64,000 nucleotides of DNA, taken from assembly GCF_013315695.1 (NCBI RefSeq), contig NZ_CP054353.1; one strand, 5' to 3'. A program made the position numbers and the translations under genes. How positions within the stretch are numbered: the stretch's first letter is position 1; every line of letters begins with the position of its first letter. Source of the stretch: Escherichia coli (lineage in GTDB: Bacteria; Pseudomonadota; Gammaproteobacteria; Enterobacterales; Enterobacteriaceae). Under the pieces are notes generated by a model. It did no database searches. It saw only the letters and a list, made by a program, of their open reading frames with translations, and had not been told where the DNA came from. Positions 48,632 through 64,000 of the stretch are shown here, in pieces.

Positions 48632-48707
48632 GCCCGGATAGCTCAGTCGGTAGAGCAGGGGATTGAAAATCCCCGTGTCCTTGGTTCGATTCCGAGTCCG
48701 GGCACCA
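48632..48707 (+). tRNA. pheV: tRNA-Phe (anticodon GAA); integration target for the downstream island
   Basis: 76 nt GCCCGGATAGCTCAGTCGGTAGAGCAGGGGATTGAAAATCCCC...GGCACCA with anticodon loop TTGAAAA; cloverleaf verified by eye. Confidence 0.95.
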
Positions 48708-48904
48708 AATTCATATCAACGGACCTCCACGGAGGTCCGTTTTTCGTTTCAGAACGCCACAATTTAAGCGTTCTGCCTCCAAATCAATTCTACCGAACTC
48801 AACCAGATTCCCCCCACATCAACCCCATTGTGTGGGTATAATTGCGGGTATACCCCAGTTCGACAGAATTTGTACCCTCTTTAACGCATTCAGAAGGCTG
48901 AACT

Positions 48905-50170
48905 ATGGCACTGACTGACGCAAAAATCCGGGCTGCAAAGCCCACTGACAAGGCTTATAAACTCACTGACGGGGCTGGCATGTTCCTGCTGGTACATCCT
49001 AATGGTTCCCGTTACTGGCGTCTCCGTTATCGTATTCTGGGTAAGGAGAAAACCCTGGCACTTGGTGTGTATCAGGAAGTTTCTCTCTCCGAAGCTCGTA
49101 CAAAACGGGATGAGGCCCGAAAACTGATTTCGGAGGGGGTTGACCCTTGCGAACAGAAAAGAGCTAAAAAAGTAGTCCCTGATTTACAGCTCTCTTTTGA
49201 ACATATTGCACGACGCTGGCATGCCAGTAATAAACAATGGGCACAATCACACAGCGATAAAGTACTCAAAAGCCTCGAGACTCACGTTTTCCCCTTTATC
49301 GGCAACCGGGATATCACAACACTCAGTACCCCAGATCTGCTTATCCCTGTTCGTGCTGCAGAAGTTAAACAAATTTATGAAATCGCCAGTCGTCTGCAGC
49401 AAAGAATATCTGCTGTAATGCGTTATGCCGTACAGTCTGGCATCATCAGATATAACCCGGCTCTGGATATGGCTGGTGCATTGACCACGGTAAAACGCCA
49501 GCATCGCCCTGCTCTGGATCTTTCACGCCTGCCTGAACTTCTGTCGCGTATTGACGGTTATAAAGGCCAGCCTGTCACCCGACTGGCAGTTATGCTGAAT
49601 TTACTGGTTTTTATTCGTTCCAGTGAACTCAGATATGCCCGCTGGTCTGAAATTGATATTGACAATGCCATGTGGACTATTCCAGCCGAACTCGAACCTC
49701 TGCCAGGCGTAAAATTTTCATACCGGGGCTCCAAGATGCGAACACCACATCTTGTGCCACTCAGCCAACAGGCTGTAGCCATACTGGCAGAACTTCAGAC
49801 ATGGGCAGGTGAAAATGGTCTGATCTTTACGGGAGCACACGACCCACGTAAACCAATCAGTGAAAATACCGTAAATAAGGCCCTCAGAGTGATGGGGTAT
49901 GACACAACCAAGGAAGTCTGTGGCCATGGATTCCGGGCGATGGCGTGCAGTGCATTGATTGAATCCGGCTTATGGTCAAGAGATGCGGTTGAACGTCAGA
50001 TGAGTCATCAGGAGCGCAACGGAGTACGTGCCGCGTATATTCATAAAGCAGAACATCTGGAAGAACGTCGGCTTATGCTGCAATGGTGGGCAGATTTTCT
50101 GGATGCAAACAGGGAGGAGTGTATCAGTCCGTTTGAATATGCAAAAGTTAACAATCCACTGAAAAGGTGA
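48905..50170 (+). CDS. int: P4-type tyrosine integrase (tRNA-associated island integrase)
   Basis: 421 aa ORF 200 bp downstream of tRNA-Phe; C-terminal catalytic region with HGFRAMA...R...Y-type motifs; appears intact. Confidence 0.9.
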   Translation: MALTDAKIRAAKPTDKAYKLTDGAGMFLLVHPNGSRYWRLRYRILGKEKTLALGVYQEVSLSEARTKRDEARKLISEGVDPCEQKRAKKVVPDLQLSFEHIARRWHASNKQWAQSHSDKVLKSLETHVFPFIGNRDITTLSTPDLLIPVRAAEVKQIYEIASRLQQRISAVMRYAVQSGIIRYNPALDMAGALTTVKRQHRPALDLSRLPELLSRIDGYKGQPVTRLAVMLNLLVFIRSSELRYARWSEIDIDNAMWTIPAELEPLPGVKFSYRGSKMRTPHLVPLSQQAVAILAELQTWAGENGLIFTGAHDPRKPISENTVNKALRVMGYDTTKEVCGHGFRAMACSALIESGLWSRDAVERQMSHQERNGVRAAYIHKAEHLEERRLMLQWWADFLDANREECISPFEYAKVNNPLKR

Positions 50171-50395
50171 CTGAACGCCATTTACACACATGCTCTTCCT
50201 CTTAAGGGGAAGAGCACCCGCCTCAATCAATTTCTTTTTTATGCCGGCGGAACCATCAGCCAGGCTGAGGTTCTCATTCAATAACTCAACGTCTTACCAC
50301 AGAACAGAATTCACTGTATTATCATGGGCAACGTTAATCCCGGACAATAAAAGGACACCGATGCCAGGCATCACAATTTTTATAGCCTGCAGGTT

Positions 50396-61766: not shown

Positions 61767-61951
61767 ATTACTGAAACACACTGTCTGTGTACAAGCGCGC
61801 ATCAGTCATCCGGTAAACATCGACTTTCCACTACAATTTATTCCTACCTGATTTCTGTATGACAGAGTAGTCCCGACAGGCAGACGGATAAATTCCCGCA
61901 GATAAAAGAACATAAATGCTGGCTGCTGACAAGTCTGTGAAAAAGGATTAT

Positions 61952-63206
61952 TGTAGTGGTTCACAAAATCAGGACACCGGAATAACCTGTTTCCACTTTT
62001 CTTCATGTAAGCAAGGCGGTAAACCATCGTTGTTCGTGTGAGGTCGATAAACGTTGTAATAACCATTAATCCACTGGTTTATATCACGTACCGCATGGAT
62101 AAAATCACCATAACCACCTTTCGGAAGCCATTCATTTTTAAGGCTGCGAAAGACTCTTTCCATCGGCGAATTATCCAGGCCATTCCCTCTGCAACTCATA
62201 CTTTGCATTACCCCATAACGCCAGAGTAACTTTCTGTATTTATTGCTTTTATACTGAACACCTTGATCTGAATGAAACAGCAGACGGCCATCACGTGATC
62301 GTGTTTCCAGTGCATTACGCAAAGCCCTACACACCAACTCAGCATCAGCGGTTAATGAGAGGGCTGAACCGGTAATCCGCCGTGAATATAAATCAACAAC
62401 GAGCGCGAGCTAACACCATTTGTCATGCAGGCGAATAAAACTGATGTCGCCGCACCAGACGCGGTCTGGTGCGGCGGGGTGAAATTGCCGGTTCAGTAAA
62501 TTTGGCAATGGCGGACTTTTGTCTTCGTTGACCCGGTAGTGATGTTTAACCATCTGTCGACTTGTCAGCCCGCATTCCCGCATCAGTCGTCGTGCCAGCC
62601 ACCGGCCTGCATCAACGCTACTCTGGCGCAACATCTGACTGATTGCACGGCTACCGGCTGCGCCACGACTGAGAGCATGGAAAGCCCTCACCCGACTTCG
62701 TAAGTCAATTCTTTGCACATTAACAGGACGCGTCACCTGCGCGTAATAAACGCTACGGTTAATACCGAATAAATGACAAATAACCCACACTGGCCACTTT
62801 GCTTTCAGCCGTGTGATTAGCGCGACAGCTTCCCGGGGATTTCGCTCATCAGCACGGCAGCCTGCTTTAGTATTTCTTTTTCCATCTCAACGCGCTTTAT
62901 CTGCGCTTTAAGCTGCTGAATTTCGCGTTGTTCAGGGATAATAGCATTACCAGCGGACTCAATACCCTGAAATTCCTGCTTATACAACCGTATCCATTTA
63001 CGCAAATGGTCAGGATTGAGCTCAAGTGCCAGCGCGACTTCTCTGACATCACGCTGGTATTTAACCACCTGTTCGATAGCTTCAAGCTTGAACTCCGGGA
63101 AAAAGGTACGTTTAGTCCGACGAGTTTTGATTATGCATCACCTCATTTTCACTGTTTTAACATTAACAAGATTTCGAGGTGTCCTGAATTACCGATCCAC
63201 TATACA
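61952..63206 (-). mobile_element. IS3-family insertion sequence (about 1.25 kb), apparently defective
   Basis: Imperfect terminal inverted repeats TGTAGTGG...TCAGGACACC at both ends; orfA-like ORF 62817-63068 lacks an ATG; orfB is split into two ORFs (62410-62790 and 61969-62337). Confidence 0.75.
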
Positions 63207-63272
63207 TCATTCGTTGCATAGAAACGCCAGGTGAAATTTCTCTCCTGTCTCACCATAAACATGGTTTTGTAT

Positions 63273-64000
63273 TCAGGGAAGATGCATGATCATCGTCATT
63301 GAACCAGACAAAGCACCAGAAGTTATCTTGCCTGCTTCACCATACAACTTGCTTCCAACTGTCACTGTCCTGGATCCTGCAGTATTCCAGCGCAATGTTT
63401 CCTCATTTCGCTTGACACCATCAAGATATATTATTGAATCCCAGCCATTGCCCAAACCAACCGCAACCCCCTGATTATTATATGCTGGTTGTGTATTGCT
63501 GAATAGTGAGATTTTAACAGTAACCGGGACGTCACAATAAATGGTAACAGCTTGGCTTGCATAATTACCATGGGCACTATCAATAGAAAGATTACCGTGG
63601 TTTATTTCAAGAGATTGAGCGGAAGGGCGACAACTTCCAGTATTATTAAATGACAGCATTAGAGTATTTGTAGCAGGTAACTGCTTAACCTGACTGTAGG
63701 GCATTTTATAATGCTCACGCCAGCCATTATAATAATGATGCTGTATCCCCCTGATATATTTAATTGGAACCTCATAGCGCCCTTTGGGTAGATCTGCAGG
63801 CAACAGTAAACTAAACCTTAATTCATTGAAAGTGTTACTCAATTGTTTTGTATTTCCTACCGGAGCACACACCCGCCCCCCATCGCTTGTCCAAGTATCC
63901 CATTCATATCCGTTGAGGAAATAATAATACCCATAATCACCTGTATTTTCCTGATTCCAGCCATATTTACTGTAGACATCAAAAAAAAACAGTATATCTA
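63273..64000 (-). CDS. papG: P-fimbrial tip adhesin PapG-like, C-terminal part (N-terminus beyond the window end)
   Basis: Translation continues in frame to the window edge and matches my recollection of PapG (...YFLNGYEWDTWT..., ...YIRGIQHHYY..., ...GLGNGWDSII..., ...ALSGSMTM). Confidence 0.75.
   Translation of the reverse strand, partial: DILFFFDVYSKYGWNQENTGDYGYYYFLNGYEWDTWTSDGGRVCAPVGNTKQLSNTFNELRFSLLLPADLPKGRYEVPIKYIRGIQHHYYNGWREHYKMPYSQVKQLPATNTLMLSFNNTGSCRPSAQSLEINHGNLSIDSAHGNYASQAVTIYCDVPVTVKISLFSNTQPAYNNQGVAVGLGNGWDSIIYLDGVKRNEETLRWNTAGSRTVTVGSKLYGEAGKITSGALSGSMTMIMHLP

What the first reader, a model, noticed from the sequence alone, without database searches (positions are those of the whole stretch)
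48632..64000. tRNA-Phe-integrated genomic island carrying a P-fimbrial operon and mostly uncharacterised cargo
An intact P4-type integrase sits 200 bp downstream of tRNA-Phe. After it, sequence character changes to AT-rich, IS-laden DNA holding a TPR-like protein, an IS66-split phosphoethanolamine-transferase-like gene, a decayed 2.3 kb stretch, a small secreted protein, a polytopic membrane protein and the distal end of a pap-like operon. This is the clearest accessory region in the window and the most likely home of undescribed functions, although I see no recognisable defence, toxin or secretion module.
Basis: partly seen in the sequence, partly recalled or inferred. Interest (0 to 1): 0.65.

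Follow-up and report, generated by a model that had tools for sequence, protein, structure and literature searches.

The report
Known pheV pathogenicity island, decayed head
This is the first 15 kb of a well-described, roughly 84-kb E. coli virulence island inserted at the pheV tRNA gene; the genes in it are either already characterised (sisA, papX, pap) or broken, so it is real but ordinary.

Summary
tRNA-Phe (pheV) lies at 48632-48707. A full-length P4-type integrase starts 197 nt later, and AT-rich DNA follows, about 31% of it IS-derived. Identity to K-12 stops exactly after the tRNA CCA. In the 100%-identical source genome (E. coli MSB1_4I) the island ends about 84.4 kb away at the imperfect repeat TTTCATTCCGATTCCGGGCACCA, and the native pheV terminator follows it. 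That 23-mer is printed as attR for CFT073, JJ1886 and Nissle GI-pheV. The island is therefore a GI-pheV / PAI I-CFT073-type pathogenicity island: pap, iha, sat, iucABCD-iutA, ag43 and a yee module, then the K1 capsule locus.

The claim of "mostly uncharacterised cargo" fails:
- The TPR protein is SisA, a published inflammation suppressor; its published qPCR primers match exactly.
- The MarR-like gene is PapX, the flhDC repressor (95.6% identical to the CFT073 protein).
- The order tRNA-int-shiA-sulfatase-tia is the published SE-PAI head.
- The rest is wreckage: the transferase gene is split by ISEc22, the tia-like gene is deleted, and papG is frameshifted.
- Only an FxLYD lipoprotein and a TfpB-family membrane protein are intact and of unknown function.
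- No defence module was found.

One side lead: the SisA/ShiA model resembles eukaryotic Rqc1/TCF25.

The parts
48632..48707 (+). tRNA-Phe (pheV). Its last 23 nt (48685-48707) form attL. The left junction of the island falls at 48707|48708.
   Evidence: ARAGORN and Rfam. Identity to K-12 ends right after the CCA.
48718..48741 (+). Island-borne terminator-like hairpin with a T-run, placed just after the tRNA. It takes the place of the native pheV terminator, which now lies beyond attR.
   Evidence: Terminator scan. The native terminator sequence follows attR in the source genome.
48905..50170 (+). intP4, a P4-type tyrosine integrase of 421 aa, full length.
   Evidence: Pfam Arm-DNA-bind_3 + Phage_int_M + Phage_integrase. 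NCBIfam PRK09692. 98.7% nt identity to the CFT073 GI-pheV integrase, which has the same length.
50426..51469 (+). [quoted passage not shown] Encodes a cytoplasmic all-alpha TPR-like protein of 347 aa.
   Evidence: AFDB50 top hit is 'ShiA homolog [E. coli]' at 100% identity. The published sisA qPCR primers match exactly at 50648-50667 and 50926-50950. The region is 99.3% identical to CFT073. AF2 model pLDDT 93.7.
51612..51842 (+). 76-aa ORF annotated as hypothetical; probably not a gene.
   Evidence: No family hit in NCBIfam, PADLOC or PHROGs. It is frameshifted in strain 317. It overlaps the convergent transferase gene.
51829..52810 (-). 3' fragment of a sulfatase-fold phosphoethanolamine-transferase-like gene (the 'sulfatase ORF' of SE-PAI); pseudogene.
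   Evidence: Distant CptA/EptA matches. An intact 500-aa form exists in strain 317. The literature names the gene order.
52811..55264 (+). ISEc22 (IS66 family; tnpA, tnpB, tnpC), flanked by the 8-bp target duplication GCTGATTC at 52803-52810 and 55265-55272.
   Evidence: RefSeq annotation. Junctions compared with the uninterrupted strain 317 gene. The same insertion is present in CFT073.
55265..55793 (-). 5' fragment of the same transferase gene.
55975..56005 (-). Stop codon plus about nine C-terminal codons of a tia/hra/Adr-like outer-membrane-protein gene. A 1062-bp deletion scar lies at 56005|56006.
   Evidence: Alignment to the strain 317 pheU island. The 246-aa OMP of strain 317 hits NCBIfam adhesin Adr and PHROG Lom.
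55982..56239 (-). 85-aa ORF. It is the truncated remnant of a 122-aa hypothetical gene and reads across the deletion scar.
56973..57352 (+). GTP-binding-protein pseudogene (frameshifted, lacks its N-terminus).
   Evidence: RefSeq annotation of the identical genome.
57605..57842 (-). Fragment of a winged-helix (OmpR/PhoB-type) regulator; pseudogene.
   Evidence: RefSeq annotation. ORF translation.
58142..58489 (+). FxLYD-domain protein of 115 aa (RefSeq starts it at 58148). Signal peptide with an IASC lipobox, so probably a lipoprotein. Intact; function unknown.
   Evidence: NCBIfam NF038353, E 4e-18, above its cut-off. Sequence.
58788..59771 (.). Remnants of IS3-family elements. They contain an Rfam isrC match at 59330-59452 (- strand).
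   Evidence: Annotation. IS911/ISEc31-like BLAST matches. Rfam RF01387, 97 bits.
60042..60758 (-). TfpB-family (Pfam PF27470) polytopic membrane protein of 238 aa. Intact; function unknown.
   Evidence: All 113 homologues carry PF27470, which names TfpB. phrog_1521 at E 3.5e-89. No conserved neighbour gene.
61251..61802 (-). papX, a MarR-family regulator of 183 aa.
   Evidence: 95.6% aa identity over all 183 residues to CFT073 PapX. MprA/MarR family hits. Function taken from the literature.
61954..63202 (-). Degenerate IS3-family element with 38-nt terminal inverted repeats, inserted between papX and papG.
   Evidence: Inverted repeats. Annotated with an internal stop. CFT073 homology breaks at 61951.
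63273..64000 (-). 3' part of papG. It is a non-class-II allele, about 48% aa identical to PapGII. The full gene is frameshifted in the source genome.
   Evidence: Annotation as two CDS. tblastn in two frames. The allele occurs in 70 of 5426 genomes, including CE10.

Best explanation
Window 48632-64000 is the proximal 15.3 kb of an 84.4-kb pathogenicity island of the GI-pheV family. That family is also called PAI I-CFT073 type or intP4.1-like.

How it arose and works:
- The island was inserted by a P4-type tyrosine integrase, by site-specific recombination with the 3' end of the pheV tRNA-Phe gene.
- Integration regenerated the tRNA. attL is the tRNA 3' end. The island supplies a new terminator hairpin.
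- An imperfect 23-nt copy of the tRNA end (attR) marks the far boundary.
- Behind the integrase lies the recurrent 'head' module of phe-tRNA islands: sisA/shiA, a sulfatase-like phosphoethanolamine transferase, and a tia/hra-like outer-membrane protein. After that come IS debris, a TfpB-family gene, papX and a pap operon.

State of this copy:
- The head has decayed. The transferase is split by ISEc22, the tia-like gene is deleted, an IS3 element separates papX from papG, and papG, papF and papC are broken.
- The genes in the window that can still act are int, sisA (reported to dampen early host inflammation) and papX (a repressor of flhDC and hence of motility). Two small orphans of unknown function, an FxLYD lipoprotein and TfpB, are also intact.
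- The virulence load of the island lies beyond the window: iha, sat, iucABCD-iutA and ag43.

Shown here: the boundaries, the gene identities and the lesions. Taken from the literature: the activities of SisA and PapX. Inferred: that the island is now effectively immobile.
For: Boundaries:
- tRNA and integrase.
- Identity to K-12 ends after the CCA. In the 100%-identical genome MSB1_4I the repeat TTTCATTCCGATTCCGGGCACCA is followed by 48 nt identical to the K-12 sequence downstream of pheV.
- The same 23-mer is listed as attR for CFT073, JJ1886, Nissle, ABU83972 and UMN026 in Table 1 of PMC11537424.

Family resemblance:
- Island gene content (pap, iha, sat, shiF-like MFS transporter, iucABCD-iutA, ag43, yee module) matches the description of intP4.1_GI-pheV.
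- Window 48401-55264 is 99.3% identical and colinear with CFT073 GI-pheV, including the same ISEc22 insertion.
- Window 55265-62979 is 97.7-99.5% identical to the pheU island of strain 317.

Gene identities:
- sisA.
- papX.
- Published order tRNA-integrase-shiA-sulfatase-tia.

Accessory status:
- Empty site in K-12.
- 14 of 5426 genomes hold at least 80% of the segment.
- G+C 44.4% against 51.2%.
Against: - The far boundary and most of the island lie outside the window. They are inferred from an identical public genome, not from the window itself.
- The integrase differs from the CFT073 allele by 16 SNPs (1.3%). That is slightly more than the <1% within-allele divergence used to define intP4.1, and I had no other intP4.1 alleles to compare, so the allele assignment is open.
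- I did not check the catalytic residues of the integrase one by one.
- The Lloyd et al. 2009 paper that characterised sisA was not readable here. Its content is cited second-hand.
Confidence: 0.95

Rival explanations
1. The region is still a mobile element (an integrative, mobilisable or conjugative element, or a satellite prophage) that excises and transfers by itself.
For: - The integrase is full length with all three domains.
- Both att repeats are present.
- The same head module is found at pheV and at pheU in different strains.
- PMC7686366 suggests excision and re-integration between the two phe sites within CC95.
Against: - No conjugation, relaxase, capsid or replication genes are annotated anywhere in the 84 kb.
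- attR differs from attL at 3 of 23 positions.
- About 31% of the window segment is IS DNA.
- The only AlpA-like small HTH gene lies about 65 kb from int.
- PMC11537424 concludes that GI-pheV co-evolves with the core genome in ST131.
Confidence: 0.05
2. The head of the island hides an undescribed defence, toxin or secretion function.
For: - Two intact orphan genes of unknown function remain: FxLYD at 58142-58489 and TfpB-family at 60042-60758.
- The TfpB family also occurs in phages (phrog_1521) and on ETEC toxin plasmids.
Against: - PADLOC gave no defence-system match for the window ORFs. The only hits were weak CARF/Csa3/CasR-type matches to the PapX winged-helix region.
- Outside the window it found only an AbiE pair whose toxin gene is frameshifted.
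- The two orphans are not adjacent. They are separated by IS debris and have no conserved partner gene elsewhere.
- Every multi-gene unit in the segment is broken.
Confidence: 0.05
3. The segment is ordinary core chromosome that merely looks AT-rich; there is no island.
For: None found.
Against: - K-12 has yghD 149 nt after pheV.
- Sequence identity to K-12 stops at the CCA.
- The segment is rare among complete genomes.
Confidence: 0

Closest known systems
PAI I-CFT073 / CFT073_GI-pheV (intP4.1_GI-pheV; Nhu et al. 2024, PMC11537424)
   Same: - Same insertion site and the same 23-nt attR.
- Integrase 98.7% nt identical.
- The first 6.4 kb after the tRNA is colinear at 99.3%, including sisA and the identical ISEc22 insertion in the transferase gene.
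- Both carry papX, pap, iha, sat, iuc/iutA, ag43 and yee modules.
   Different: - There is no hlyCABD and no two-component/oxidoreductase block after ISEc22.
- Instead the island continues with the other half of the transferase gene and a pheU-island-like stretch.
- papG is a different allele, about 48% aa identical to PapGII, and is frameshifted.
- Size is 84 kb against 105-123 kb.
pheU island of canine strain 317 (NZ_CP023357.1; its P-pilus-at-pheU make-up recalls PAI II-CFT073, which was not compared)
   Same: It has the same order: int, sisA-like TPR, transferase, OMP, pseudogenes, FxLYD, IS debris, TfpB, papX, IS3, pap. Identity to window 48584-62979 is 97.7-99.5%.
   Different: - It sits at pheU, not pheV.
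- Its transferase (500 aa) and its tia/Adr-like OMP (246 aa) are intact.
- It has a different papG.
SE-PAI (subtilase-encoding island at a tRNA-Phe gene) and module I of the LAA island
   Same: The published order tRNA-integrase-shiA-sulfatase ORF-tia is the ancestral order reconstructed here. LAA module I likewise carries sisA plus an Hra-family adhesin.
   Different: There is no subAB here, the tia-like gene is deleted and the sulfatase ORF is interrupted.
PAI-CE10-pheV (O7:K1 strain CE10)
   Same: Same papG allele (99.5% nt). It is an intP4.1-type island with P pilus, aerobactin, Sat and Iha, next to a K1 capsule locus.
   Different: - CE10_GI-pheV is smaller (46 kb).
- It lacks a recognisable attR according to PMC11537424.
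- I did not compare the two islands in detail.
ShiA of the Shigella flexneri SHI-2 island
   Same: The window protein is named a ShiA homologue in UniProt. The family is reported to attenuate inflammation.
   Different: SHI-2 is at selC. I did not compute the percent identity to Shigella ShiA itself.

Membership tests
tRNA-integrated genomic / pathogenicity island (classical criteria) | Inserted directly at the 3' end of a tRNA gene | tested here: met
   Identity to K-12 ends at the CCA of pheV, at 48707.
tRNA-integrated genomic / pathogenicity island (classical criteria) | Integrase gene next to the tRNA | tested here: met
   421-aa P4-type integrase 197 nt downstream.
tRNA-integrated genomic / pathogenicity island (classical criteria) | Flanking direct repeats derived from the tRNA 3' end | tested here: met
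   A 23-nt repeat matching at 20 of 23 positions (the last 19 nt carry one substitution) lies 84.4 kb away in the identical genome. The native pheV terminator follows it. It lies outside the window.
tRNA-integrated genomic / pathogenicity island (classical criteria) | Absent from related strains; atypical base composition; IS elements; virulence genes | tested here: met
   - Empty site in K-12.
- 14 of 5426 genomes hold at least 80% of the segment.
- G+C 44.4% against 51.2%.
- Three IS regions.
- sisA, papX, pap, iha, sat, iuc and ag43 are present.
intP4.1_GI-pheV (PMC11537424) | intP4 allele within <1% divergence of the intP4.1 group | tested here: inconclusive
   There are 16 SNPs (1.3%) relative to CFT073. 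The paper calls CFT073 the most divergent intP4.1 member, 13 SNPs from the others. I compared no other intP4.1 allele.
intP4.1_GI-pheV (PMC11537424) | 19-bp imperfect attR with one substitution | tested here: met
   ATTCCGATTCCGGGCACCA against ATTCCGAGTCCGGGCACCA. The full 23-mer is identical to the one printed for CFT073, JJ1886 and Nissle.
intP4.1_GI-pheV (PMC11537424) | Modules pap (complete or remnant), sat, iha, flu, iucABCD-iutA and yee | tested here: met
   RefSeq annotation of the identical genome.
SisA/ShiA | Same gene as CFT073 sisA | tested here: met
   - Both published sisA primers match exactly.
- The region is 99.3% nt identical to CFT073.
- UniProt 'ShiA homolog' at 100% identity.
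SisA/ShiA | Suppresses host inflammation | not testable with these tools
   Literature only. The primary paper is not held.
PapX (MarR-family regulator encoded at the end of pap) | Full-length orthologue of CFT073 PapX located distal to papG | tested here: met
   95.6% identity over 183 of 183 aa. It lies distal to papG but is separated from it by an IS3 element.
PapX (MarR-family regulator encoded at the end of pap) | Binds the flhD promoter and represses motility | not testable with these tools
   Literature.
IS66 family (ISEc22) | tnpA-tnpB-tnpC, terminal inverted repeats beginning GTAAGCG, 8-bp target duplication | tested here: met
Functional P-fimbrial (pap) operon | Intact papA-H-C-D-J-K-E-F-G | tested here: not met
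   papG is split by a frameshift, papF is truncated by IS1 and papC is frameshifted.
Anti-phage defence system (PADLOC families) | A match to a complete known system | tested here: not met
   - No defence-system match for the 10 window ORFs. PapX gave only weak CARF/Csa3/CasR-type hits through its winged helix.
- Elsewhere in the island, AbiEi is intact but AbiEii is frameshifted.
- A TOTE fragment is a pseudogene.
TCF25/Rqc1 (Pfam PF04910), considered for SisA | Significant match of the protein itself to PF04910 | tested here: not met
   - The window protein has no Tcf25 hit.
- Only 1 of 46 family members reaches E<=0.001. P0180 scores 1.9e-5 and the distant P0216 scores 4e-7.
- The family profile finds only generic TPR chains among PDB sequences.
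TCF25/Rqc1 (Pfam PF04910), considered for SisA | Fold similarity over the whole solenoid | tested here: met
   - Foldseek against PDB gives the same chain as top hit, TMq 0.58.
- Fold similarity between alpha-solenoids does not prove homology.

The most novel reading that the evidence does not exclude
SisA/ShiA, the one intact non-regulatory cargo gene behind the integrase, may not be a dedicated host-directed inflammation suppressor. It may belong to a widespread family of cytoplasmic proteins carried on mobile elements.

- The family has 38-54% identical members in Azovibrio, Rhizobium, Methylobacterium, Verrucomicrobium, Morganella and others.
- Its members are always single genes, and several of the contexts examined lie beside transposases, relaxases or toxin-antitoxin pairs.
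- Its predicted fold is closest to eukaryotic Rqc1/TCF25, the ribosome-quality-control subunit.

If that resemblance reflects homology, the family would act inside the bacterium, for example on stalled ribosomes or in conflicts between mobile elements and their hosts. The reported effect on inflammation would then be indirect.
Probability: 0.15. Interest if true: 0.5.

Novelty: already known. Interest (0 to 1): 0.12.

Why it matters
It matters little as a discovery. GI-pheV islands occur in about half of complete E. coli genomes and have a dedicated evolutionary study (PMC11537424). This copy is 100% identical to an annotated RefSeq genome.

Its use is descriptive:
- It is a clean example of how such an island decays, through IS66 and IS3 insertions, a 1-kb deletion and frameshifts in pap.
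- It shows how heads of pheV-type and pheU-type islands recombine into mosaics.

The only forward-looking point is the side observation that SisA/ShiA resembles Rqc1/TCF25 and is common in non-pathogens. That could redirect work on a protein whose mechanism is still unknown.

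Tried and rejected
- Pfam-A scan of the 238-aa membrane protein gave nothing. Its family, PF27470 TfpB, appeared only in precomputed annotations.
- The AlphaFold model of that protein was poor (pLDDT 62), so I ran no fold search on it.
- Neighbourhoods of its homologues showed no conserved partner: eltAB on ETEC plasmids and lpxR in Citrobacter rodentium.
- A literature search for tfpB returned only unrelated uses of the name.
- PADLOC on 30 island proteins gave only an AbiE remnant, weak sub-threshold hits and weak regulator-type hits for PapX.
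- PHROGs and NCBIfam gave no function for the 76-aa and 85-aa ORFs. I treat these as a spurious ORF and a truncated remnant.
- Sequence searches of SisA against PDB chains gave generic TPR matches only.
- A conserved operon partner for SisA: seven neighbourhoods showed none. A ribosomal S21 paralogue beside it was seen in Rhizobium only and did not recur.
- The primary sisA paper (PMC2786477) is not held.
- I considered and rejected a prophage or ICE reading, because no structural or transfer genes are annotated.
- I did not determine the MLST or lineage of the strain, and did not assign the papG class beyond showing it is not class II.

Full report
**Observation.** ARAGORN finds one tRNA in the window, tRNA-Phe(GAA) at 48632-48707, and Rfam agrees. 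A 421-aa ORF starts 197 nt later, at 48905-50170. It carries the three domains of P4-type integrases, Arm-DNA-bind_3, Phage_int_M and Phage_integrase, and it matches NCBIfam PRK09692. Composition changes downstream. The 48.6 kb before the tRNA has 51.2% G+C, and same-length sub-windows range from 49.0 to 53.3%. The island segment has 46.5%, or 44.4% without the G+C-rich ISEc22. IS-derived DNA makes up about 4.7 of 15.3 kb: ISEc22 at 52811-55264, IS3 debris at 58788-59771, and a degenerate IS3 element at 61954-63202.

**Source and boundaries.** Window 48400-64000 is 100% identical to E. coli MSB1_4I, a human rectal swab isolate (NZ_LR898874.1). Upstream genes are speC and yqgA, so the tRNA is pheV. 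K-12 has an empty site, with yghD following pheV. Base-by-base comparison shows identity to K-12 up to the CCA at 48707 and none after it. In the source genome, an imperfect copy of the tRNA end, TTTCATTCCGATTCCGGGCACCA, lies 84.4 kb further on. It matches at 20 of 23 positions, and the last 19 nt carry one substitution. It is followed by 48 nt identical to the K-12 sequence downstream of pheV, that is, the native terminator. Beyond that lie an IS110 fragment and the K1 capsule locus, kpsF through neuC. The island also brings its own terminator-like hairpin for the tRNA at 48718-48741.

**What the island is.** The 23-mer attR is printed in Table 1 of Nhu et al. 2024 (PMC11537424) for CFT073, JJ1886, Nissle 1917, ABU83972 and UMN026. 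That paper describes intP4.1_GI-pheV as a modular island with complete or remnant pap, sat, iha, flu, iucABCD-iutA and a yee module, ending in a 19-bp imperfect repeat. The annotation of the source genome shows exactly these modules:
- pap, with papF cut by IS1 and papC frameshifted
- iha
- sat
- an MFS transporter followed by iucABCD-iutA
- ag43
- a yeeU/cbtA module
- an AbiE pair with a frameshifted toxin gene

The window integrase is 98.7% identical to that of CFT073 (16 SNPs) and 96.2% identical to that of a pheU island. Window 48401-55264 is colinear with CFT073 GI-pheV at 99.3%, including the same ISEc22 insertion. After ISEc22, CFT073 continues with a two-component system and hlyCABD. 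The window instead continues with the other half of the interrupted gene and matches the pheU island of canine strain 317 at 97.7-99.5%. The copy is thus a mosaic of known island types. It is rare as such: 14 of 5426 genomes hold at least 80% of the 15.6 kb, and 48 of 5426 hold the 55265-61900 part.

**Gene by gene.**
- The 'TPR-like protein' (50426-51469) is SisA.
  - The AlphaFold-database top match is 'ShiA homolog [Escherichia coli]' at 100% identity.
  - The two sisA qPCR primers printed in PMC2978726 match exactly at 50648-50667 and 50926-50950.
  - SisA and SisB of CFT073 are reported to suppress the early inflammatory response (Lloyd et al. 2009, cited; the paper itself is not held).
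- The split gene is a distant CptA/EptA relative. [quoted passage not shown]
  - ISEc22 sits in it with an 8-bp duplication, GCTGATTC.
  - Strain 317 keeps it intact at 500 aa.
- The next gene of that module, a tia/Adr-like outer-membrane protein, has been removed here by a 1062-bp deletion. Only its stop codon and about nine C-terminal codons remain, at 55975-56005. The annotated 85-aa ORF is a truncated neighbour that reads across the scar.
- GTPase and winged-helix fragments follow.
- Next is an intact FxLYD-domain protein with a lipobox.
- IS3 debris comes after it and contains an Rfam isrC match.
- Then comes an intact 238-aa membrane protein of Pfam family PF27470 'TfpB'.
- The 'MarR-family' gene (61251-61802) is PapX, 95.6% identical over its full length to CFT073 PapX. 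PapX binds the flhDC promoter and represses motility.
- A degenerate IS3 element now separates it from papG.
- papG is a non-class-II allele, about 48% identical to PapGII, and is split by a frameshift. The same allele occurs in 70 genomes, including CE10.

**Defence, toxin and secretion content.** PADLOC models gave no defence-system match for the ten window ORFs. The only hits were weak CARF/Csa3/CasR-type matches to the winged-helix region of PapX. For twenty further island proteins they gave only AbiEi, whose partner AbiEii is frameshifted, plus weak sub-threshold matches.

**Mechanism.**
- Shown: insertion at the tRNA 3' end with att repeats; an integrase with intact architecture; the identity of the cargo; and each lesion.
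- From the literature: the SisA and PapX activities, and the modular evolution of GI-pheV by IS-mediated insertion, deletion and recombination.
- Inferred: the island is now fixed. It has no transfer genes, attR has diverged, and no excisionase-like gene lies near int. Within the window only int, sisA, papX and two orphans can still act.

**Side observation.**
- The SisA family is not confined to pathogens. Members of 329-341 aa and 38-54% identity occur in Morganella, Xenorhabdus, Azovibrio, Verrucomicrobium, Methylobacterium, Rhizobium and others. An alignment of 46 members has 21 invariant residues.
- Seven neighbourhoods show no conserved partner. Several lie in mobile DNA: Tn3, relaxase with MqsRA, ISL3, and an island carrying Fic, a helicase and a restriction-modification gene.
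- Sequence support is thin. The window protein itself does not hit Pfam Tcf25, one of 46 members does, and two relatives give E 1.9e-5 and 4e-7 over long colinear stretches. The family profile finds only generic TPR chains in PDB.
- No held paper links ShiA with TCF25.
- I record this as a lead, not a finding.

**Verdict.** The island is real, its boundaries are precisely defined, and it is already known. The window holds its decayed head. Interest is low. The one idea worth a follow-up is the possible kinship of SisA/ShiA with Rqc1/TCF25.

Noticed in passing
[not shown]
   Followed up: partly
window 59330-59452 (- strand): A strong Rfam match to the Hfq-binding sRNA isrC (97 bits; gathering score 39) lies inside IS3-family debris. 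It may reflect IS-derived sequence in the isrC model rather than a functional sRNA here.
   Followed up: no
window 60042-60758 (- strand); loci L007-L012: The 238-aa membrane protein belongs to Pfam PF27470 'TfpB' and to phrog_1521. Homologues at 57-58% identity sit next to the heat-labile enterotoxin genes eltAB on ETEC plasmids and next to lpxR in Citrobacter rodentium. Function is unknown and the AlphaFold model is poor.
   Followed up: partly
window 48718-48741: The island provides a new terminator-like hairpin directly after tRNA-Phe. The native pheV terminator is displaced 84 kb, to just beyond attR.
   Followed up: partly
L005 (strain 317, NZ_CP023357.1) 6049-20031: The same head module (int, sisA-like gene, intact 500-aa phosphoethanolamine-transferase-like gene, intact tia/Adr-like OMP, and on through papX and pap) sits at pheU instead of pheV. 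The module therefore uses either phe-tRNA gene.
   Followed up: partly
window 58142-58489: The FxLYD-domain protein has a lipobox (IAS|C) and very low G+C (36.5%). It is probably an outer-membrane lipoprotein of unknown function, and is intact amid pseudogenes.
   Followed up: no
L003 12064-13385 (source genome, distal end of the island; outside the window): An AbiE abortive-infection pair: AbiEi is intact (PADLOC E 2.9e-52) but the AbiEii toxin gene is frameshifted. A fragment of a TOTE conflict-system primase gene is annotated at L001 46824-47034.
   Followed up: partly
L016 5705-6990 and L017 286-1655 (Rhizobium): A ribosomal protein S21 paralogue lies directly upstream of the SisA-family gene in two Rhizobium contigs. 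The pairing did not recur in the other five neighbourhoods examined.
   Followed up: partly
window 33883-36718, and roughly 9900-17400 (approximate, converted from the source-genome annotation in L018): There are small accessory clusters in the otherwise core part of the window: a three-gene TRAP transporter between hemW and yggM, and a dagR/PTS/dgaE/dagF cluster between speB and loiP. An IS1 is also annotated in cmtB near the window start. All are seen only in the source-genome annotation.
   Followed up: no
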